Origin: an uncultured Flavobacterium sp.
GTDB taxonomy: Bacteria; Bacteroidota; Bacteroidia; Flavobacteriales; Flavobacteriaceae
Length of the DNA: 64,000 nt
Assembly (NCBI GenBank): GCA_964614445.1
Contig: CAZTLN010000002.1
Span: 115,165-179,164 of the forward strand
Direction of reading: 5' to 3'
Position numbers and translations under genes: made by a program. The notes below the pieces were generated by a model. The model ran no database searches. It had not been told where the DNA came from and worked only from the letters and a program-made list of their open reading frames with translations. This document shows positions 25,653 to 32,327 of this stretch, piece by piece. How positions within the stretch are numbered: position 1 is the stretch's first letter; every line of letters begins with the position of its first letter.

Positions 25653-27848
25653 TTAAAATTTAAAGGTAATTCCGGCAAGGAAATTAGTCCCCGCCTGCGG
25701 ATAATATCCTGCACCTTCAATAGTGGTTATTTGGGTAGCACTTGACCAGTTATCGTCATAAGTATAAAAATACCCGTTTGAAACATATTTTTGGTCAAAT
25801 AAGTTATTAACCAAAGCTGATATCACTATGGATTTAAAAACCGATTTTGGATTTAATTCATAAGAAACATTCAAATCATTTACAAAATAAGAATCTAATA
25901 TAGAAACTTCTGAATCTATATTCCCCATATACTGCTCCCCTACAAATTTCGACAAAAACGAAATCTGCAGATTTTCCAATGGAAGGAAAGTGATACTATT
26001 CCCCGCTACAATTTCAGGAGAATAAGCAATATTGGTGTTGCCTAAATTTGTCAACTCTCCGTCTCTTTGAAAATAGAAATCTTTATTTTTATTAGCACTC
26101 AAAGTAAAATTTGGTCTAATAATCAATTTATCCATTAATGAAATGGAAGCATCCACCTCAAGGCCCAATCGGTAACTATCACCACTATTTGCCCTTATCG
26201 GACTTCCCACATTATCAATATCACCTGTAAGGATTAACTGATCCTTGTATGCCATATAATAAATATTAGCATTGAATTTTACCTTAGATGTTGCATGACG
26301 CAATCCTAACTCAAAATCATCAAGCTTCTCAGGTCTTGGATTACCATTCTCATAATCGGTTCTATTTGGCTCCCGATTTGCTCTGGCATAGGAGAAATAG
26401 AGTTTATTGTTATTATCTAATGAATAGTTCAGACCTGCTTTGGGATTGAAAAAGTTGAAATTATCATTTACAAGGTTAGTTTCCGGACTGTCAGCTTTAT
26501 AATGCACATTACGAAGTTGCAAATCCCCATATAAGTTCAAATTAGAACTAAGCTGATAATTAGCTTTTGCATAAAGGTTCCCATCTGTTTTAGAAGCATA
26601 ATCGTCATAATAATGATCTCCCAATTCGCTTTGAGAAGCAAAACGTGCCCAAATTACTTTTCCAAAGTGATCTCCTTCATATTTATTATAACCGCCTCCG
26701 AAAATCACCTCTAAATTTTCCTGTTTATAATTAACAGAAAAGGTGGCTCCGTAAAAATCATTGTCTAACCACTTTTGACGTATCAAATCAGTTGAATCCT
26801 CTGAACCAACAGCTAGTAGTCCAAAATCTTCAAAGGCAGCATCTTCCTGATAGTTTTCATAATACCCTTTCCCTTTTGTATAGTGCAAGGCAAAATTTGT
26901 GTTCCATTTATCTGAAACCTTTTCATTCCAATGCAGCTGGAAATGATCTTGTTGATAATTGTCGGTTTCATTGTCATAGAAGCGGGTATTCCCATTTTCA
27001 TCTGTAAAATATCCAGCCCAGTTAAACTTTCTGTCCGTTTTCAAAGTCTCACCGTCAATACCATACCATGACTGATAAGTTTTCTCTTTTCCGCCAAAAG
27101 TCAAAGCTTTAATCAAAGTCGTTTTTCCAACATAGGTTCCCTGTAGAAAATAGGATTTCAAATCAGAACTTCCACGATCTATATAACCATCAGATTTTAA
27201 ATCAGATAGCCGACCTGCGATTTCAAAGTGGTTGTTCATTAAACCCGTACTAAACTTAACAGTACTTTTTCTGGTATTAAAACTCCCAAATGAATTGGAA
27301 ATCTCAGCATTACCAACTTTTGAATATGCATCTGTCAACATATTCAAACTAGCTCCAAAAGCTCCTGCTCCATTTGTAGATGTTCCCACACCTCGTTGTA
27401 ACTGTAAACTTTCAACAGAGGAAGCAAAATCCGGCAAATCCACCCAATACGTGCCCTGACCTTCTGCATCATTATAGGGAATACCATTTATGGTAACATT
27501 AACTCTTGTTGCGTCGCTACCGCGAACACGAATACCTGTATATCCTACTCCATTTCCTGCATCTGAAGTTGTCACTACCGATGGCAAATAGTTCATTAAT
27601 ATTGGTAAATCCTGACCTAAATTTCGAAGCGAAATTTCTTTTTTACTCAAATTACTGTAACTAACTGGAGTTTTTGCGGTAACGCGAACTGCTGAAACGA
27701 GCACCTCATCTAACTGATTAACTGAGGTAGTGTCTTTTATTTGTTGAGAAAAAGAAAATAAAGAAAATAATAAAAAGAAGTAAATGAAAATTCTTCTTTG
27801 AGTCCTCAATGCCGACTCTGTGTTGATGGTTTTAAAAATAATATCCAT
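25653..27848 (-). CDS. TonB-dependent receptor, probably for thiamine
   Basis: Signal peptide, TonB box LDEVLVSA, plug motifs (RGSDATRVNVTINGIP, LQRGVGTSTNG), C-terminal GITFKF; TPP riboswitch upstream. Confidence 0.9.
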   Translation of the reverse strand: MDIIFKTINTESALRTQRRIFIYFFLLFSLFSFSQQIKDTTSVNQLDEVLVSAVRVTAKTPVSYSNLSKKEISLRNLGQDLPILMNYLPSVVTTSDAGNGVGYTGIRVRGSDATRVNVTINGIPYNDAEGQGTYWVDLPDFASSVESLQLQRGVGTSTNGAGAFGASLNMLTDAYSKVGNAEISNSFGSFNTRKSTVKFSTGLMNNHFEIAGRLSDLKSDGYIDRGSSDLKSYFLQGTYVGKTTLIKALTFGGKEKTYQSWYGIDGETLKTDRKFNWAGYFTDENGNTRFYDNETDNYQQDHFQLHWNEKVSDKWNTNFALHYTKGKGYYENYQEDAAFEDFGLLAVGSEDSTDLIRQKWLDNDFYGATFSVNYKQENLEVIFGGGYNKYEGDHFGKVIWARFASQSELGDHYYDDYASKTDGNLYAKANYQLSSNLNLYGDLQLRNVHYKADSPETNLVNDNFNFFNPKAGLNYSLDNNNKLYFSYARANREPNRTDYENGNPRPEKLDDFELGLRHATSKVKFNANIYYMAYKDQLILTGDIDNVGSPIRANSGDSYRLGLEVDASISLMDKLIIRPNFTLSANKNKDFYFQRDGELTNLGNTNIAYSPEIVAGNSITFLPLENLQISFLSKFVGEQYMGNIDSEVSILDSYFVNDLNVSYELNPKSVFKSIVISALVNNLFDQKYVSNGYFYTYDDNWSSATQITTIEGAGYYPQAGTNFLAGITFKF

Positions 27849-27949
27849 TCGTCAAATGTCCTGCGAATAATAGGGGGTATTACTCTTGTTTTTAAATTAT
27901 TAATTGATATGCCTATGACGACCAAGCTGTGCACCACTTTATCGTCAAT

Positions 27950-28025
27950 TTTCCCTTAGCAACATTACTTGCCCAGGTTCGTTGGGTATGATCTCAGCTC
28001 GTTATTTAGAGCACCCCTTTGAGAC
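27950..28025 (-). ncRNA. TPP (THI-box) riboswitch
   Basis: Reverse complement reads AAAGGGGTGC...GAGCTGAGATCATACCCAACGAACCTGGGCAAGTAATGTTGCTAAGGGAA, with the GCTGAGA, ATACCC..GAACCTG and TAATG..GC..AGGGAA hallmarks. Confidence 0.95.
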
Positions 28026-28029
28026 GGCG

Positions 28030-28087: not shown

Positions 28088-28492
28088 TTAGTCAATCTTA
28101 GGCTTTTTTCTCTGTTGTTTAACCAATGAGGATCTCTGTTTATCTTTTATTCGCTTTCTGATAACTGATTTGGGAACTTTGGTCTCCTTTCTTATTTTAA
28201 CAACCTGCAAACCTTTCTCAAGTAGTTTCAAAAATCGATTGGTTATTATTTCCTTGTTTTTAAGTTGGCTACGATCCATGTCGCAGTTTAGAATTAAAAT
28301 GGATTGTGCAGTTAATCTGGAGGAAAGATTTTTCTTTAGCAGTATTTTTTCTTCTTCAGTCAATGAAGATGAGTTTTTCAAATCGAAGGAAAGTACAACT
28401 TTTGAAGCAACTTTGTTTACATTTTGTCCTCCTGCACCGCTACTGCGGACAGCCTTGAAATTTAATTCGGATATAATTCTCTGAACATCCAA
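28088..28492 (-). CDS. arfB: Alternative ribosome rescue factor ArfB (peptidyl-tRNA hydrolase), TTG start
   Basis: RSSGAGGQNVNKV (GGQ), RSQLKNK, basic C-tail. Confidence 0.93.
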   Translation of the reverse strand: MDVQRIISELNFKAVRSSGAGGQNVNKVASKVVLSFDLKNSSSLTEEEKILLKKNLSSRLTAQSILILNCDMDRSQLKNKEIITNRFLKLLEKGLQVVKIRKETKVPKSVIRKRIKDKQRSSLVKQQRKKPKID

Positions 28493-28495
28493 AAT

Positions 28496-30115
28496 CTAAA
28501 TGGATTGATGAGCTTCCTTAAGCAAATCATTAACAGTCTTCACCGGATTGAAAGTAATAAGTGGTACCTCAACAAAAACGGTCAGCCAATTTGCCATAGC
28601 TCCATTCCATAAACCGGGTAATTCATAAGCTTTAATGTCTCTTCCCTCGAATGTTTTTTCAACTATAAAACCACTATCTGGATCAACAAACTTTGTTAAA
28701 TCAAATTTTTCATTTTTGTAATTTTTTGTCCCACAAACCAAATCCACAGGATTAAAATGAGACGAATCGTCAAAAATTTTGGCTTGTTCCGGATTAGTTA
28801 AATCCACTTGCGAGGATTCAACTATTTGCAGGCTAACCTCATTATCAGCATTTATTACCCAAAAAGGACCTCCTCCTGGTTCTCCTTCATTTTTCACCAT
28901 TCCACAAACACGAATCGGACGATTTAAGACCTGATGTAGACGTATAATTTTCGCCTCTGTGCCCAAGTTATCAAAACCATGATTGACTTCGAAATTAATT
29001 TTATCCTTCAAAAAGGCTTTAATTTCTATAATCTGCTCTGGAGAAATTACACCTGAATCAATTAGAAGTAAATAATCAAAAATCTGTCTTTGCAGTTCAA
29101 CTAAAACACCTGCCAGCGCTTTCTTATATAATGCTATATTTTCATTATTATGCAAAATCACATTGTCAATGTTCTTAATGAAAATAACATCGGCATCCAG
29201 TTTGTTCAAATTGCCAATTAAGGCTCCATGACCTCCAGGTCTGAATAATAATCGACCATCGCTTTTTCTGAATGGACTATTATTCTCATCAACCGCAATA
29301 GTATCGGTACTTTTGTCTTGGTACGAATAACTTACCTGGATAGTTGTATCTGTTTCATTTTCGACATTACCTTTTACGGAATCAATTATCTGTTCAAATT
29401 GTGATTGGTGTGATTCTGATACCGTAAAATGTAAAAATGAATTATGATTTGAACTTGAATAATAACCACATTCGTACAAATGTTCTTCAATGGGTGTGGC
29501 AATCGTTGTGGCATATTTATGAAAAGGCAAAATTCCTTTTGGTTTGTTTGCAAAATCAAAATAGTCCGAAGAGAGCATAAACTTTACAAAATAATAGTTC
29601 TTATAATCTCGGGACAAAGAATCAAAATCATCTATCTCTTCCTTTAATTTGCTGTAAACACTGTTAAAAAAAGGAAATTTGTCCATCCCCACTATAAAAA
29701 CCATCAGTTTGTCATCCTTTTTTCGGTTGATGTATGCATTGATTGTTTCATTTTCGACATCAAAATCATTGAGAAAAACACTCAAAAACTTAAACATCCT
29801 ACTTGCCGCACCAGATGCAGGCACAAATTTCAGCAATTTAAATTTTGATTTATGGCTGTCAAAAAAATCAGCTTTTTGGATAAAATTACTTTGGGATAAT
29901 TTGATTATTCCGTTACCAAGAGTGGCTGGTTCCACTAATTTCATTTTAGGTATGCCTTTTTGAAAAATATCCAGCTGCTTTTGGATATTGCCTAAGGGAA
30001 TTCCATAATCTTTGATTTGAGCAAGATCATTTAAGGAAAAGTTCTTCATACTACTTTTATCTGAATCCTTTATAATTTCCTGGATATCTGAATTTGATTT
30101 ATTAACTCCCTGCAT
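28496..30115 (-). CDS. DUF4301 family protein (putative nucleotidyltransferase)
   Basis: KFVPASGAASRMFK, RPGGHGAL, FIKNIDNV, CGMVKNEGEPGGGPFW, ELPGLWNGAM, FNPVKTVNDLL. Confidence 0.88.
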   Translation of the reverse strand: MQGVNKSNSDIQEIIKDSDKSSMKNFSLNDLAQIKDYGIPLGNIQKQLDIFQKGIPKMKLVEPATLGNGIIKLSQSNFIQKADFFDSHKSKFKLLKFVPASGAASRMFKFLSVFLNDFDVENETINAYINRKKDDKLMVFIVGMDKFPFFNSVYSKLKEEIDDFDSLSRDYKNYYFVKFMLSSDYFDFANKPKGILPFHKYATTIATPIEEHLYECGYYSSSNHNSFLHFTVSESHQSQFEQIIDSVKGNVENETDTTIQVSYSYQDKSTDTIAVDENNSPFRKSDGRLLFRPGGHGALIGNLNKLDADVIFIKNIDNVILHNNENIALYKKALAGVLVELQRQIFDYLLLIDSGVISPEQIIEIKAFLKDKINFEVNHGFDNLGTEAKIIRLHQVLNRPIRVCGMVKNEGEPGGGPFWVINADNEVSLQIVESSQVDLTNPEQAKIFDDSSHFNPVDLVCGTKNYKNEKFDLTKFVDPDSGFIVEKTFEGRDIKAYELPGLWNGAMANWLTVFVEVPLITFNPVKTVNDLLKEAHQSI

Positions 30116-30216
30116 GATTCACAAATGATTATTGCAATTAACAAAACTTAAATTACAACAAATTAATAACTTTTAAAAATAAGCTCAACAATTCTAAAGA
30201 TGAATTTTACCATTAT

Positions 30217-30840
30217 TTAAAGTAAACCCTCTTTTTCTTTCAGGATTTTTCGCCATTCTAAATAAGCTGATATAGCTAAAGTCGTAAAAATCAAATACTG
30301 CAGGGACAACATCCCTAGTCCTCTGTAGGCATACAATGGCGTCACAATTATATCCCCAATGATCCATAGTGTCCAATTCTCAATTTTCTTATGAGCCATA
30401 AACCACATACCGGCAAAAAATATTCCAGATGCTAGAATATCCACATAATTGTCAGTATGAATCTGATAATCAAAAATTATATAAATCAAGTATACAACCA
30501 TTACTGTAATAAAAAACAATCCAAACCCAACCAGCTTTTCTTTAATACTTGACCTGGATATTGGCAGTTTCTCATCATTATCTATTTTCCTTGTCCATTT
30601 ATACCAACCATAAATACTCATTATGGTAAAATACCCATTGATAATCATGTCCCCAACATAACCCGCGATAAAAAGCAAATAAACCGTTATAACAGTTGCA
30701 ACGATGCCGGTGGGATACACCAACACATTTTCTTTTTTTGCAAAAACAACACTTAGAATACCAAATACAAAAACAACAAACTCCAAAAAGATTTGTGTTA
30801 TTGAAGCATCTTTATAGGCATTAAGAAAAAAATCTATCAT
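30217..30840 (-). CDS. pnuC: PnuC-family vitamin/nucleoside transporter
   Basis: YPTGIV, YGWYKW, KKIENWTLWIIGD motifs; about 7 TM segments. Confidence 0.9.
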   Translation of the reverse strand: MIDFFLNAYKDASITQIFLEFVVFVFGILSVVFAKKENVLVYPTGIVATVITVYLLFIAGYVGDMIINGYFTIMSIYGWYKWTRKIDNDEKLPISRSSIKEKLVGFGLFFITVMVVYLIYIIFDYQIHTDNYVDILASGIFFAGMWFMAHKKIENWTLWIIGDIIVTPLYAYRGLGMLSLQYLIFTTLAISAYLEWRKILKEKEGLL

Positions 30841-31592
30841 TTTAAATCTAAAATCTTATGTACACTATACTTATTAAAAAATTCCGTATCCTTCTCAAAA
30901 GCGGTACCAATTACCACCATGTCCGCCCCTGCATTGTAAGCATCCTGAATACCGCGCAAATGTATAATTCCTCCGCCAACAATTACAGGAATAAGAACAT
31001 TTTTAGAAACCAGTGATATCATCTCAATAGGAACGGACTGCATAGCACCACTCCCAGCTTCCAAATAGACCAGTTTGTTACCCAACATTTCACCAGCCTG
31101 ACAGGTGGCAAGAACACGATCGTTGTCAGTTCTTGAAATAGGGGTGGTATTACTCACACGCTCCACTGCTGTTTGGGATCCGCTTTCAATTAAAAGATAG
31201 GCCGTAGGAATAATTTCTAAATTTGTTTTCTTCAAAATTGGCGCAGCCTGCACATGATATTCAATCAAATAATCGGGGTTTCGTCCAGACAATAACGAGA
31301 GAAACAAAATTCCATCAGCATTTTCTGAAATCTGTGAGGGATGTCCCGGGAAAAGAATTATCGGAAGTGATAAGTCCTTCTTTATTTTTGCAATTAAATT
31401 GTCCAGTATATCGTTGGTCACCAGGCTCCCACCTATAAGTAAATGTGTTGCCGGGGATCGTTTAATATTAACAACCAGTTCATCTAAATTTTCCCAGATT
31501 ATTTTATCGGGATCAATAAGGATCGCTAGTAATTTATTTCCTGTTAACTTCGCCTTAAGGATATCTTTATATAGAATGGTACTACTATTCAT
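30837..31592 (-). CDS. Geranylgeranylglyceryl/heptaprenylglyceryl phosphate synthase (group II GGGPS, PcrB-like family)
   Basis: LIDPDK, GGS, FPG..SQI, LSLLSGRNP, YLEAGSGA, IVGGGI, VVIGT. Confidence 0.93.
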   Translation of the reverse strand: MNSSTILYKDILKAKLTGNKLLAILIDPDKIIWENLDELVVNIKRSPATHLLIGGSLVTNDILDNLIAKIKKDLSLPIILFPGHPSQISENADGILFLSLLSGRNPDYLIEYHVQAAPILKKTNLEIIPTAYLLIESGSQTAVERVSNTTPISRTDNDRVLATCQAGEMLGNKLVYLEAGSGAMQSVPIEMISLVSKNVLIPVIVGGGIIHLRGIQDAYNAGADMVVIGTAFEKDTEFFNKYSVHKILDLK

Positions 31593-31694
31593 TTAAATTT
31601 TAGATGCTTATTTTGGGAGTATTATTTAATTAATGACGTTAAAAATGAAAAGTGTTTTTATCATTCTCATCAAAAATTACTAAAAACGAAAAAA

Positions 31695-32327
31695 CTATTT
31701 TTCCATGGCGTAAACCAGGCTAAAATCTTCTACATCTTCAAAAAATACTTTAAACTCTTCATTAATCCCATTAAAATTCAAATTTGCAAGTGCAGTAAAC
31801 TCTTCCAATCTGAATTCAGCCACATTAATATGATCTTTAAAACTAATTCCCTTCTCGTTTCTGATTTTAAAAATAGATTCCTTGATACCCCAAATCACAG
31901 TTAACTTTTTAATATAGTCTGTTGAGTGATCTTTTTCCAAAAATTCGAATTCAGCATTACAAAATTTATCAGCAATTCGGATAATTTTCTCCCGCTGAAG
32001 TTCAATATCAATACCCACTTTTTTATCACTTATAATTATAGAAGAAAATTGGTGAGAATGCGTTATTGAAATATATTTGCCATCATGCAAATGTGGTTTT
32101 CCGAATTCATCATAATATAAATCAAAATCATTATAACCGGCTTCGCCCAAAAGTTTTCGGACGCTGAGAAAACCTCTTTGATGTAATTCAGACTTCATAC
32201 CCTCAACGCGCTGCTTACAGCTTTCTTTCAGAGCTATTTCTTCTGATAATTTCTGAAAGGACTCTGTAATCTTCCATACGTAGACAGTTGTTGAACTATC
32301 GAAATTATATTTTTTGAATAGAGGCAT
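31695..32327 (-). CDS. 4'-phosphopantetheinyl transferase (Sfp-type)
   Basis: YDEFGKP, ISITHS, VGIDIE, WGIKES. Confidence 0.88.
   Translation of the reverse strand: MPLFKKYNFDSSTTVYVWKITESFQKLSEEIALKESCKQRVEGMKSELHQRGFLSVRKLLGEAGYNDFDLYYDEFGKPHLHDGKYISITHSHQFSSIIISDKKVGIDIELQREKIIRIADKFCNAEFEFLEKDHSTDYIKKLTVIWGIKESIFKIRNEKGISFKDHINVAEFRLEEFTALANLNFNGINEEFKVFFEDVEDFSLVYAMEK

What the first reader, a model, noticed from the sequence alone, without database searches (positions are those of the whole stretch)
28496..30115. DUF4301 looks like a eukaryote-type NDP-sugar pyrophosphorylase embedded in a transporter/ether-lipid operon
Seen: the protein carries, in order, VPASGAASRMFK / RPGGHGAL / FIKNIDNV / GMVKNEGEPGGGP / LQIVESSQV / FNPVDL / VEVPLITFNPVKTVNDLL. 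Established: eukaryotic UDP-glucose pyrophosphorylases (UDPGP family, GT-A-like fold) have, in the same order, motifs of the form LNGGLGTSMG / PPGHGD / FVSNIDNLG / KT.ADVKGG / LRL.EIAQV / FNTNNL / NVPRSRFLPVKTTSDLL (recalled from memory). Inference: DUF4301 is an uncharacterised nucleotidyltransferase. Its position directly downstream of a PnuC transporter and a G1P-prenyltransferase suggests a pathway of import, activation by NTP, then transfer. The substrate could be a sugar-1-phosphate, a nucleoside monophosphate or a prenylglyceryl phosphate. This is my best candidate for an undescribed system in the window.
Basis: partly seen in the sequence, partly recalled or inferred. Interest (0 to 1): 0.7.

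Follow-up and report, generated by a model that had tools for sequence, protein, structure and literature searches.

The report
Probable UDP-glucose-making enzyme, DUF4301
This gene encodes an uncharacterised protein (DUF4301) that has the fold and catalytic motifs of the eukaryote-type enzymes that make UDP-sugars, most likely makes UDP-glucose, and sits beside the vitamin transporter and the ether-lipid gene through inherited gene order, not a shared pathway.

Summary
Window 28496-30115 (minus strand) is a 539-aa DUF4301 protein carrying all seven quoted motifs.

**Fold: supported.** An AlphaFold model (pLDDT 89) matches only UDPGP-family structures at E <= 0.001 (UGPase, UAP1, USP; E down to 4e-9). 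The UDPGP Pfam model weakly hits 16 of 59 homologs. A weak profile-profile alignment keeps the catalytic motifs in order.

**Import-activation-transfer pathway with PnuC and PcrB: not supported.**
- In Flavobacteriaceae the real partner of PnuC is a NadR-type riboside kinase, adjacent or fused to DUF4301 in 70 of 80 loci. This genome has lost it.
- PnuC-kinase pairs exist without DUF4301, and DUF4301 exists without either.
- One relative has the same gene block with DUF4301 missing.

**Informative contexts lie elsewhere.**
- A UDP-glucose-type (GT3) glycogen synthase sits directly upstream in 14 of 14 genomes of two Flavobacteriales families. The five tested lack GlgC and GalU.
- rmlB-rmlC-DUF4301 units occur in 5 of 6 Thermoanaerobaculia loci.

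The best reading is a non-GalU glucose-1-phosphate uridylyltransferase, which is unproven. The scan reached similar conclusions before on other DNA.

The parts
28496..30115 (-). DUF4301 gene, 539 aa: UDPGP-superfamily nucleotidyltransferase, proposed NTP:glucose-1-phosphate nucleotidyltransferase
   Evidence: ORF. PF14134 at 685.7 bits. AF2 model pLDDT 89.1, pTM 0.88. Foldseek top 35 hits are all UDPGP family.
29972..30076 (-). N-terminal residues 14-48: remnant of the linker that follows the NadR-type kinase domain in fused Flavobacterium homologs
   Evidence: tblastn of the first 215 residues of fused P0048 against the window: 18 of 35 identical, E = 2e-7. The tree places the window protein inside the clade of fused proteins.
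29789..29824 (-). Variant Gly-rich nucleotide-binding loop VPASGAASRMFK (residues 98-109)
   Evidence: Position. S101 G102 R106 M107 are invariant in 138 representatives. It follows strand E94-98 in the model. hhalign did not align it.
29534..29542 (-). P192-K193-G194: candidate phosphate-binding lysine, separated from the Gly-rich loop by a helical insertion of about 80 residues
   Evidence: K193 invariant. Aligned to the conserved SK109GTD of bacterial UDPGP, segment E = 0.009. Helices 106-181 in the model.
29219..29242 (-). RPGGHGAL (292-299), counterpart of the UGPase PPGHGD motif
   Evidence: G295 H296 G297 invariant. Aligned to APAGHG. PPGHG seen in yeast UGPase 2i5k.
29159..29182 (-). 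FIKNIDNV (312-319), counterpart of the UGPase NxDNLG motif; followed by a second helical insertion (about residues 324-397)
   Evidence: N318 invariant, N315 and D317 at least 90% conserved. Aligned to IGNGED, possibly one residue out of register. Helices 324-397.
28805..28903 (-). GMVKNEGEPGGGP (405-417) and LQIVESSQV (429-437), counterparts of KT..DVKGG and LEVAQV
   Evidence: G414 G415 invariant, E433 and Q436 at least 90% conserved. Aligned to DKKGGQ and TIVEKAQ.
28739..28756 (-). FNPVDL (454-459), counterpart of FNTNN
   Evidence: F454 N455 P456 at least 90% conserved. Aligned to FFNTN.
28520..28573 (-). VEVPLITFNPVKTVNDLL (515-532) with invariant K526, counterpart of the C-terminal catalytic lysine motif (F.PVK..DL)
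   Evidence: P524 and K526 invariant. Aligned to F.PIKK.eD.
30217..30840 (-). PnuC-family transporter; neighbour by synteny, not shown to be a functional partner
   Evidence: PF04973 at 160 bits and TIGR01528 at 84 bits. Next to DUF4301 in 78 of 80 Flavobacteriaceae loci and 0 of 20 distant loci. Pairs with the kinase without DUF4301 elsewhere.
30837..31592 (-). PcrB/GGGPS-family prenyltransferase; neighbour by synteny only
   Evidence: NF003198 at 283 bits. Present in 56 of 80 Flavobacteriaceae loci and 0 of 20 distant loci.
28088..28492 (-). ArfB ribosome-rescue hydrolase, 3 nt downstream; unrelated housekeeping gene in the same syntenic block
   Evidence: NF006718 at 110 bits, above cut-off. 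Present in 61 of 80 loci.

Best explanation
The gene encodes a soluble nucleotidyltransferase from a highly diverged, mainly Bacteroidota branch of the UDPGP superfamily, the fold of eukaryotic UDP-glucose, UDP-GlcNAc and UDP-sugar pyrophosphorylases.

Proposed reaction (inferred): NTP + alpha-D-hexose-1-phosphate <-> NDP-hexose + PPi, most likely UTP + glucose-1-phosphate -> UDP-glucose. That would make it a non-GalU UGPase.

Proposed mechanism, by analogy with UDPGP enzymes (inferred):
- The variant Gly-rich loop (PASGAASRM), K193, H296 of PGGHG and K526 hold the NTP phosphates and the leaving pyrophosphate.
- N315/D317/N318, the GGG loop, E433 and N455 line the sugar-phosphate site.
- Two family-specific helical insertions (about 110-190 and 324-397) and an N-terminal domain may serve regulation or oligomerisation.

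In this window the gene lies in a block conserved across Flavobacteriaceae: PPTase-PcrB-PnuC-[kinase]-DUF4301-ArfB. In the Flavobacterium lineage the NadR-type riboside kinase of the PnuC cassette became fused to DUF4301. This genome later deleted the kinase and kept a linker remnant. The neighbours reflect inherited gene order, not a pathway.

My graded confidence: UDPGP-fold nucleotidyltransferase about 0.9; sugar-1-phosphate acceptor about 0.75; UDP-glucose specifically about 0.5.
For: FOLD AND HOMOLOGY (shown)
- AF2 model pLDDT 89.1, pTM 0.88.
- Foldseek against PDB: all 35 hits with E <= 0.001 are UGPase, UAP1/AGX or USP, E from 3.8e-9 to 1.3e-5, probability 1.00, 360-600 aligned columns. 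The next best, GDP-mannose pyrophosphorylase, has E = 2.5e-3.
- PF01704 is the only second family that recurs among homologs: 16 of 59, best E = 9.6e-6. It also hits inside the DUF4301 gene of G029.
- hhalign of DUF4301 against bacterial PF01704 proteins gives three colinear segments (E = 0.009, 0.048, 0.18) that pair the invariant motifs of both families.
- The motif residues are invariant or nearly so in 138 representatives.

SUBSTRATE (inferred from context)
- A GT3 (eukaryote-type) glycogen synthase lies immediately upstream on the same strand in 14 of 14 genomes of two Flavobacteriales families. Pfam confirms both genes in one locus, and consecutive accessions PWM09532/PWM09533 fit adjacency.
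- Five of five such genomes tested have no GlgC and no GalU above cut-off.
- Eukaryotic GT3 synthases use UDP-glucose (PMC11046441). Prevotella bryantii lacks glgC, has a eukaryote-type UDP-glucose glycogen synthase and has measured UGPase activity (PMC7935935, PMC4432691).
- In 5 of 6 Thermoanaerobaculia loci DUF4301 directly follows an RmlB-like 4,6-dehydratase and an RmlC-like isomerase, with 14-20 nt overlaps in three of them, and no RmlA in the unit.
- GT3 carriers are enriched for DUF4301: 11 of 20 against 63 of 401 overall.
- Canonical GalU was found in only 3 of 201 genomes of the phylum sample and not in the own genome.
- The own genome encodes a UDP-glucose/GDP-mannose dehydrogenase-family enzyme.

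TRANSFER TO THE WINDOW PROTEIN
- 45% identity over 514 aa to a GT3-linked member and 39% over 532 aa to an rml-linked member, with the quoted motif blocks conserved or nearly so.
- One orthologous family on the tree. Usually one match per genome.
- A Prevotella ruminicola DUF4301 protein was detected in a rumen metaproteome (PMC7035244).

SYNTENY, NOT PATHWAY.
Against: - There are no biochemical or genetic data for any family member. Neither the base nor the sugar specificity is shown.
- Sequence-level homology is weak. The window protein itself has no PF01704 hit at E <= 10, HMM searches of PDB find nothing, and hhalign probabilities are low. Foldseek TM-scores are only 0.33-0.55.
- GT3-positive genomes exist with none of DUF4301, GalU and GlgC: 12 tested for GlgC and 5 for GalU. 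Another route to the sugar nucleotide must therefore exist in this phylum and could also serve DUF4301 carriers.
- The own genome has no GT3 synthase. It uses an adjacent GlgA(GT5)-GlgC pair, and it carries an unassigned 337-aa RmlA-long-like transferase that could be its UGPase.
- The 14 GT3 pairs come from only two genera, and the five rml loci share flanking synteny, so each context may reflect one or two evolutionary events.
- In 20 other lineages the neighbours are uninformative.
Confidence: 0.55

Rival explanations
1. DUF4301 activates a different sugar-1-phosphate, or uses a different nucleotide. Examples: a broad UDP-sugar pyrophosphorylase of the USP type, a UDP-GlcNAc or UDP-galactose enzyme, or a dTDP/GDP-glucose enzyme. 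The chemistry and fold would be the same and only the substrate would differ.
For: Foldseek scores UAP1 and USP about as well as UGPase, and the TM-scores are highest for UAP1 (0.45-0.55). The loop segment S-R-M resembles the G-T-R-L of the UAP/AGX loop more than the G-T-S-M of UGPase; this rests on my recollection and on the sequence, not on a test. The rml context would also fit dTDP-glucose.
Against: The GT3 glycogen-synthase pairing, in genomes without GlgC or GalU, points to glucose and, by analogy with eukaryotic GT3 enzymes, to UDP (PMC11046441). The own genome already has a bona fide RmlA (477.7 bits, above cut-off).
Confidence: 0.25
2. DUF4301 is a non-orthologous NMN (or riboside-phosphate) nucleotidyltransferase. 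It would complete a PnuC -> riboside kinase -> DUF4301 salvage route to NAD or a related dinucleotide, as an analogue of NadR. This is the nearest defensible form of the first reader's pathway idea.
For: PnuC, a NadR-type kinase and DUF4301 are contiguous in 70 of 80 Flavobacteriaceae loci. The kinase is fused in frame to DUF4301 in 32 of them, and the P-loop is intact in 67 of 70. The own genome has no NadR- or NadM-sized cytidylyltransferase-like protein. The chemistry, a phosphate attacking the alpha-phosphate of an NTP, is compatible.
Against: - The linkage was seen only in Flavobacteriaceae: 0 of 20 distant loci.
- PnuC-kinase is a two-gene module in six loci from four other families. Five of those genomes have no DUF4301 match, and in the sixth (G175) DUF4301 lies on another contig.
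- G055 keeps PPT-PcrB-PnuC-kinase-ArfB without DUF4301.
- Ten of 80 loci keep DUF4301 without the kinase, and the window's genome has no AAA_28 kinase at all.
- Some fused proteins carry decayed kinase domains next to an intact DUF4301 part.
- Unrelated genes (ArfB, PPTase) are about as well conserved in the same block.
- The genome has PncC/CinA and a NadD-sized protein, which can route NMN to NAD without a dedicated enzyme.
- The independent contexts elsewhere involve glucose-nucleotide users.
Confidence: 0.07
3. DUF4301 activates the product of the neighbouring PcrB/GGGPS (a prenylglyceryl phosphate) or glycerol-1-phosphate with CTP or another NTP, as a soluble analogue of a CDP-alcohol-forming step in ether-lipid synthesis.
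For: PcrB lies two genes upstream on the same strand in this window and overlaps pnuC by 4 nt. It is present in 56 of 80 Flavobacteriaceae loci.
Against: PcrB is the least conserved neighbour. It is missing from the block in Maribacter and Flagellimonas-type loci, where PnuC-kinase-DUF4301 persists, and from all 20 distant loci. The PcrB block persists without DUF4301 in G055. All structural matches are to soluble sugar-1-phosphate enzymes. Known CDP-archaeol and CDP-diacylglycerol synthases are integral membrane proteins of another fold (general knowledge).
Confidence: 0.02
4. DUF4301 has lost catalysis and acts as a regulatory or scaffolding protein that merely keeps the UDPGP fold.
For: The canonical GxGT of the nucleotide-binding loop is altered (S-G-A-A-S), and two large insertions are present.
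Against: Every other catalytic motif, including both lysines, the histidine and the NxDN residues, is invariant or nearly so across 138 representatives. That pattern is typical of an active enzyme. The family is usually single-copy and is retained in small genomes of 1.6-2.1 Mb.
Confidence: 0.03

Closest known systems
Eukaryote-type UDP-glucose pyrophosphorylase (UGP2/Ugp1p/plant UGPase; Pfam UDPGP PF01704; PDB 5weg, 2icy, 3r3i, 2i5k, 5nzj)
   Same: Best structural matches (E from 3.8e-9). Same order of catalytic motifs: Gly-rich loop, P-K, PxGHG, NxDN, K..GG loop, (I/L)VE.(A/S)Q, FN(T/P), F.PVK..DL. A UDP-glucose product would fit the GT3 glycogen-synthase pairing.
   Different: Only 8-14% identity in the structural alignments. 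The window protein has no PF01704 hit, and HMM searches of PDB find nothing. The Gly-rich loop reads S-G-A-A-S-R-M instead of G-G-L-G-T-S-M. A helical insertion of about 80 residues lies between the loop and the P-K lysine, and a second of about 60-70 residues follows NxDN. There is a distinct N-terminal domain. TM-scores are only 0.33-0.49. The family is bacterial (Bacteroidota and Thermoanaerobaculia).
UDP-GlcNAc pyrophosphorylase UAP1/AGX1 and UDP-sugar pyrophosphorylase USP (PDB 6tn3, 4bma, 2yqh, 1jvd, 3oh2)
   Same: Same superfamily. Highest TM-scores (0.45-0.55) and near full-length alignments. The S-R-M in the loop resembles the T-R-L of UAP/AGX (my recollection).
   Different: No context links DUF4301 to amino sugars. 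Identity is 8-11%.
GalU (bacterial UTP:glucose-1-phosphate uridylyltransferase) and RmlA; NTP_transferase fold, PF00483
   Same: Same proposed reaction. DUF4301 occurs in genomes without GalU, and in rmlB-rmlC units where an RmlA-type enzyme would be expected.
   Different: A different family: no PF00483, TIGR01099 or TIGR01207 match to DUF4301. Those enzymes are about 290 aa, against about 510-540 aa here. The own genome has its own RmlA.
NadR (NMN adenylyltransferase + ribosylnicotinamide kinase) with PnuC
   Same: In Flavobacterium homologs a NadR-type kinase domain is fused to a nucleotidyltransferase-fold domain next to pnuC, which superficially mimics NadR.
   Different: The nucleotidyltransferase part has a different fold (UDPGP, not the HxGH cytidylyltransferase-like fold) and the domain order is reversed. 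The two parts are separable in both directions across genomes, and the window's gene has lost the kinase.

Membership tests
Pfam DUF4301 (PF14134) | Full-length match above the gathering score | tested here: met
   685.7 bits against a cut-off of 27; residues 29-537 on profile positions 3-507 of 507.
UDPGP superfamily (UGPase/UAP/USP, PF01704) | Overall three-dimensional fold | tested here: met
   All 35 Foldseek PDB hits with E <= 0.001 are UDPGP-family chains, probability 1.00, E from 3.8e-9 to 1.3e-5, 360-600 aligned columns. TM-scores are moderate (0.33-0.55) because of insertions.
UDPGP superfamily (UGPase/UAP/USP, PF01704) | Match to the PF01704 profile at Pfam's threshold | tested here: not met
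   The window protein has no PF01704 hit even at E <= 10. Sixteen of 59 homologs give weak hits, best E = 9.6e-6. hmmsearch of two DUF4301 profiles against PDB gives 0 hits. It is therefore a separate family within the superfamily, not a PF01704 member.
UDPGP superfamily (UGPase/UAP/USP, PF01704) | Gly-rich nucleotide-binding loop (L.GG.GT.M) after the first strand | tested here: inconclusive
   A variant loop, P-A-S-G-A-A-S-R-M, follows strand 94-98, with S101 G102 R106 M107 invariant. hhalign did not include it, and the Foldseek residue alignment is not available.
UDPGP superfamily (UGPase/UAP/USP, PF01704) | PxGHG motif, NxDN motif, K..GG loop, VE.AQ, FN(T)N, and the C-terminal F.PVK..DL lysine, in that order | tested here: met
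   All are present, colinear and paired with the invariant residues of bacterial PF01704 proteins in hhalign (E = 0.009, 0.048, 0.18 for three segments; NxDN possibly one residue out of register). The same motifs appear in yeast UGPase 2i5k. The residues are invariant or at least 90% conserved in DUF4301. The alignment statistics are weak.
UDPGP superfamily (UGPase/UAP/USP, PF01704) | UTP:sugar-1-phosphate uridylyltransferase activity | not testable with these tools
   Inferred only from fold, motif conservation and gene context.
GalU / RmlA / GlgC (NTP_transferase, PF00483) | Profile match to the family | tested here: not met
   No Pfam or NCBIfam hit of this kind for the window protein. Structures of this fold score far lower in Foldseek (E >= 2.5e-3).
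NadR/NadD/NadM-type NMN adenylyltransferase (cytidylyltransferase-like, PF01467) | Profile match and fold of the HxGH nucleotidyltransferase superfamily | tested here: not met
   No PF01467 hit for DUF4301. None of these structures appears among the Foldseek matches listed.
PnuC-riboside kinase salvage cassette (as a system that would include DUF4301) | Obligate co-occurrence and adjacency of DUF4301 with PnuC and the kinase across lineages | tested here: not met
   Adjacent in 70 of 80 Flavobacteriaceae loci and in 0 of 20 other lineages. PnuC-kinase occurs without DUF4301 and DUF4301 without the kinase. The own genome has no kinase.

The most novel reading that the evidence does not exclude
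In Flavobacteriaceae the kinase-DUF4301 protein is a true functional analogue of NadR. DUF4301 would use its UDPGP-type active site to join an NMP to NMN, or to another phosphorylated riboside imported by PnuC, making NAD or a non-canonical dinucleotide. That would be a case of non-homologous replacement of the NMN adenylyltransferase domain. The glucose-nucleotide contexts elsewhere would then reflect a broader or shifted specificity in other lineages.
Probability: 0.07. Interest if true: 0.8.

Novelty: new variant of a known kind. Interest (0 to 1): 0.5.

Why it matters
DUF4301 is a large family. It has no published function: the only paper in the searched library that mentions it is a rumen metaproteome table, and the Pfam accession appears in none.

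The family occurs in major marine, soil and gut groups: Flavobacteriaceae, Runella, Bacteroides thetaiotaomicron, Prevotella ruminicola, Ignavibacteria and Kapabacteria.

In the sample searched these bacteria largely lack the classical GalU (3 of 201 genomes). Yet UDP-glucose-dependent glycogen synthesis and UGPase activity have long been reported for Prevotella.

If DUF4301 is the missing enzyme:
- a gap in nucleotide-sugar and glycogen metabolism would be filled for an abundant phylum;
- thousands of annotations would be corrected;
- it would be an example of a eukaryote-type fold doing a core bacterial job.

For this window specifically, the result also warns against reading the PnuC/PcrB neighbourhood as a pathway.

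Tried and rejected
- **Sequence searches of PDB.** phmmer and hmmsearch with the single protein and with two profiles found no relevant hit. The relationship shows only by fold, by weak Pfam hits and by profile-profile alignment.
- **hhalign in global mode.** It gave a meaningless 6-column alignment; local mode was used instead.
- **GalU complementarity.** Uninformative, because GT3-positive genomes with and without DUF4301 both lack GalU.
- **GlgC complementarity.** Not clean, because GT3-positive genomes without DUF4301 also lack canonical GlgC. Ten of 12 have other NTP-transferase proteins.
- **A substitute nucleotidyltransferase beside GT3 where DUF4301 is missing.** None found; the neighbours are unrelated.
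- **Neighbour tally in 20 distant lineages.** No recurrent family.
- **NMN adenylyltransferase idea.** It was my leading hypothesis. I downgraded it.
- **Ether-lipid link.** Rejected.
- **Promoter and terminator scan.** Counts are at the level of shuffled sequence, so no operon boundaries are claimed.
- **Unavailable resources.** The primary paper of Lou et al. 1997 (PMC168755) is not held; its content is cited through PMC7935935 and PMC4432691.
- **Sample composition.** The anonymous phylum sample may hold some genomes of uncertain placement. One PF01704 protein in it is closest to Halobacteriovorax proteins, so I give counts as 'in the sample searched'.
Full report
**1. What is there**

Window 28496-30115 holds one 539-aa ORF on the minus strand. 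It is a full-length member of Pfam DUF4301 (685.7 bits). It has no NCBIfam model and no sequence-level match in PDB.

On the minus strand the gene order is:
- PPTase 31695-32327
- PcrB/GGGPS 30837-31592
- PnuC 30217-30840, overlapping PcrB by 4 nt
- DUF4301, after a 101-nt gap
- ArfB 28088-28492, after a 3-nt gap
- after 239 nt containing a sub-threshold TPP-riboswitch match, a TonB-dependent receptor 25653-27848

The genome holds a single DUF4301 and a single PnuC.

**2. The fold**

An AlphaFold2 model built on 59 homologs is confident (mean pLDDT 89.1, pTM 0.88). Foldseek against PDB returns 35 hits with E <= 0.001, and every one is a UDPGP-family enzyme:
- plant, human, Leishmania, Aspergillus and trypanosome UGPases
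- fungal and human UDP-GlcNAc pyrophosphorylases
- Leishmania USP

E-values run from 3.8e-9 to 1.3e-5 with probability 1.00 and 360-600 aligned columns. The bacterial-type GDP-mannose and RmlA enzymes follow only at E >= 2.5e-3. TM-scores are moderate (0.33-0.55). That fits an extra N-terminal domain and two helical insertions, about residues 110-190 and 324-397.

At sequence level the link is faint but real:
- PF01704 is the only second family that recurs when 59 homologs are scanned (16 of 59, best E = 9.6e-6).
- In a genome search PF01704 hit inside another genome's DUF4301 gene.
- HMM-versus-sequence searches of PDB find nothing.

For a profile-profile test I collected bona fide bacterial PF01704 proteins, starting from one that aligns to yeast UGPase 2i5k. 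hhalign gave weak but colinear segments (E = 0.009, 0.048, 0.18):

| DUF4301 | Bacterial PF01704 |
|---|---|
| P-K193 | S-K-G-T-D |
| FRPGGHG | APAGHG |
| KNIDN | GNGED |
| EPGGGP | DKKGGQ |
| QIVESSQ | TIVEKAQ |
| HFNPVD | FFNTN |
| TFNPVKTVNDL | FFNPIKK..DF |

. These same residues are invariant or at least 90% conserved in 138 DUF4301 representatives. The Gly-rich loop is a variant (S-G-A-A-S-R-M), and the tools did not align it.

**3. The neighbourhood does not define a pathway**

Homologs in many Flavobacterium species are about 704 aa, because a NadR-type riboside kinase domain (AAA_28, P-loop GPESTGKTT) is fused to the N-terminus. Across 80 Flavobacteriaceae loci:

| Neighbour | Loci of 80 |
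|---|---|
| PnuC | 78 |
| Kinase, directly upstream | 70 (32 fused, 38 separate genes) |
| PPTase | 73 |
| TonB-dependent receptor | 72 |
| ArfB | 61 |
| PcrB | 56 |

This made an NAD-salvage role (PnuC, then kinase, then DUF4301 as an NMN adenylyltransferase) my leading idea. It failed further tests:
- None of 20 DUF4301 loci from other families has PnuC, the kinase or PcrB within about 6 kb, and their neighbours share no recurrent family.
- PnuC-kinase is a stand-alone two-gene module in six loci from four other families. Five of those genomes have no DUF4301 match. The sixth carries DUF4301 on another contig.
- A Flavobacteriaceae genome without DUF4301 has PPT-PcrB-PnuC-kinase-ArfB, the same block with DUF4301 missing.
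- Ten of 80 loci have DUF4301 without the kinase. The window's genome has no AAA_28 kinase at all, whereas the eight other sampled genomes of the genus have two each.
- The window protein's residues 14-48 still align to the linker after the kinase domain of fused homologs (E = 2e-7). On a maximum-likelihood tree it nests inside the fused Flavobacterium clade (support 100/98 and 99/96). Its kinase was therefore lost secondarily while DUF4301 stayed intact.
- The genome has PncC/CinA and a NadD-sized protein, which can route NMN to NAD.

PcrB is the weakest neighbour of all. The block is best read as conserved synteny of mostly unrelated housekeeping genes.

**4. Contexts that do inform function**

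*Glycogen synthase.* As I recalled, and as PMC7935935 and PMC4432691 confirm, Prevotella bryantii makes glycogen from UDP-glucose with a eukaryote-type synthase, lacks glgC and has measurable UGPase activity. I therefore searched for the GT3 glycogen synthase (PF05693).
- In the phylum sample it occurs in 20 of 401 genomes, and 11 of those carry DUF4301, against 63 of 401 overall.
- In all 14 sampled genomes of two Flavobacteriales families (9 of 9 and 5 of 5), GT3 lies immediately upstream of DUF4301 on the same strand, with the match ends about 10-125 nt apart and touching in one genome.
- Pfam confirms both genes in one locus, where the flanking genes are unrelated. Consecutive GenBank accessions, PWM09532.1 for DUF4301 and PWM09533.1 for 'glycogen synthase', fit adjacency in a MAG record.
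- Five such genomes, 97-100% complete, have no GlgC and no GalU above cut-off.

*Rhamnose-type genes.* In Thermoanaerobaculia (Acidobacteriota), 5 of 6 loci show an RmlB-like 4,6-dehydratase, an RmlC-like isomerase and DUF4301 in a row. The last two overlap by 14-20 nt in three loci, and the downstream genes vary. One Ignavibacteria-group locus has RmlD two genes upstream.

Both contexts involve enzymes that consume an NDP-glucose. Eukaryotic GT3 synthases use UDP-glucose (PMC11046441). Canonical GalU was found in only 3 of 201 sampled genomes and not in the own genome.

The window protein is 45% identical to a GT3-linked member and 39% to an rml-linked member over essentially its full length, with the quoted motif blocks conserved or nearly so. 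The family behaves as one orthologous group. A Prevotella ruminicola DUF4301 protein has been detected by proteomics.

**5. Caveats**

- No member has been assayed, and the base and sugar specificity are inferred.
- GT3-positive genomes with none of DUF4301, GalU and GlgC exist, so the phylum has at least one more unknown route to the sugar nucleotide.
- No substitute transferase sits beside GT3 in those genomes.
- The window's own genome has no GT3. It uses adjacent GlgA(GT5)-GlgC, has a true RmlA, and has an unassigned 337-aa RmlA-long-like transferase that could be its UGPase. It does encode a UDP-glucose/GDP-mannose dehydrogenase-family enzyme.
- The GT3 pairs come from two genera, and the rml loci share flanking synteny, so the number of independent events is small.

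**6. Relation to earlier notes of this scan**

After I had the fold result and the fusion lead, a look-up showed that the scan had met this family before on other DNA. After I had found the GT3 and rml contexts, a second look-up showed notes on those too.
- One follow-up (e1-4187049) judged the kinase fusion to be merged neighbours.
- One follow-up (e1-3101701) proposed the missing UDP-glucose enzyme.
- One follow-up (e1-986706) reports DUF4301 ahead of a complete rmlBACD operon. This argues against a simple RmlA replacement and keeps a 'second activated sugar' reading open.

My tests agree with the first three and partly bear on the fourth.

**7. Verdict**

The fold interpretation is supported and the pathway interpretation is not. 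DUF4301 is a new, diverged family within a known enzyme superfamily. The most likely activity is UTP:glucose-1-phosphate uridylyltransferase. My estimates are about 0.5 for that exact activity, about 0.75 for some sugar-1-phosphate acceptor and about 0.9 for a UDPGP-type nucleotidyltransferase.

Noticed in passing
window 27933-28027 (-): Sub-threshold TPP riboswitch match (RF00059, 32.3 bits against gathering 54.3, E = 0.004, full model length) in the 239-nt gap between arfB and the TonB-dependent receptor 25653-27848. The receptor is probably a separate, thiamine-regulated unit. A similar receptor follows the block in 72 of 80 Flavobacteriaceae loci.
   Followed up: partly
whole genome G000 (window = C2:115165-179164): The genome keeps pnuC but has no AAA_28/NadR-type riboside kinase (best 25.6 bits, below cut-off). 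All eight other sampled genomes of the genus have two copies. How imported riboside would be trapped here is unclear.
   Followed up: partly
window 28088-32327 (-); L133 (G055): PPTase-PcrB-PnuC-[kinase]-[DUF4301]-ArfB is a conserved syntenic block across Flavobacteriaceae genera. The kinase and DUF4301 are each independently dispensable. In this window PcrB and PnuC overlap by 4 nt.
   Followed up: yes
P0062, P0103 (Flavobacterium homologs, 651 and 628 aa): These are fused proteins whose N-terminal kinase domain has decayed (no P-loop) while the DUF4301 part is intact. They look like intermediates on the way to the kinase-less state seen in the window.
   Followed up: partly
L155, L157-L160 (Thermoanaerobaculia metagenome and MAG contigs): On the tree the Acidobacteriota DUF4301 proteins nest within Bacteroidota sequences, next to a family from the sample's 'same phylum' group. 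This suggests horizontal transfer into an rmlB-rmlC unit.
   Followed up: partly
G111, G379 and other GT3-positive genomes (L139-L150): Genomes with a eukaryote-type GT3 glycogen synthase but without DUF4301, GlgC above cut-off or, where tested, GalU. The source of their sugar nucleotide is unknown. Several carry 627-633-aa proteins with an N-terminal NTP-transferase domain.
   Followed up: partly
L104, L105, L107-L109: Proteins of 1113-1134 aa in several genomes of the phylum sample carry a partial PF01704 (UDPGP) match (profile positions about 160-295, 26-44 bits). They were not examined.
   Followed up: no
L149 (G379), L142/L143 (G464, G473): A uracil phosphoribosyltransferase lies directly downstream of the GT3 glycogen synthase in one genome. 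A nucleoside transporter lies convergent to it in two others.
   Followed up: no
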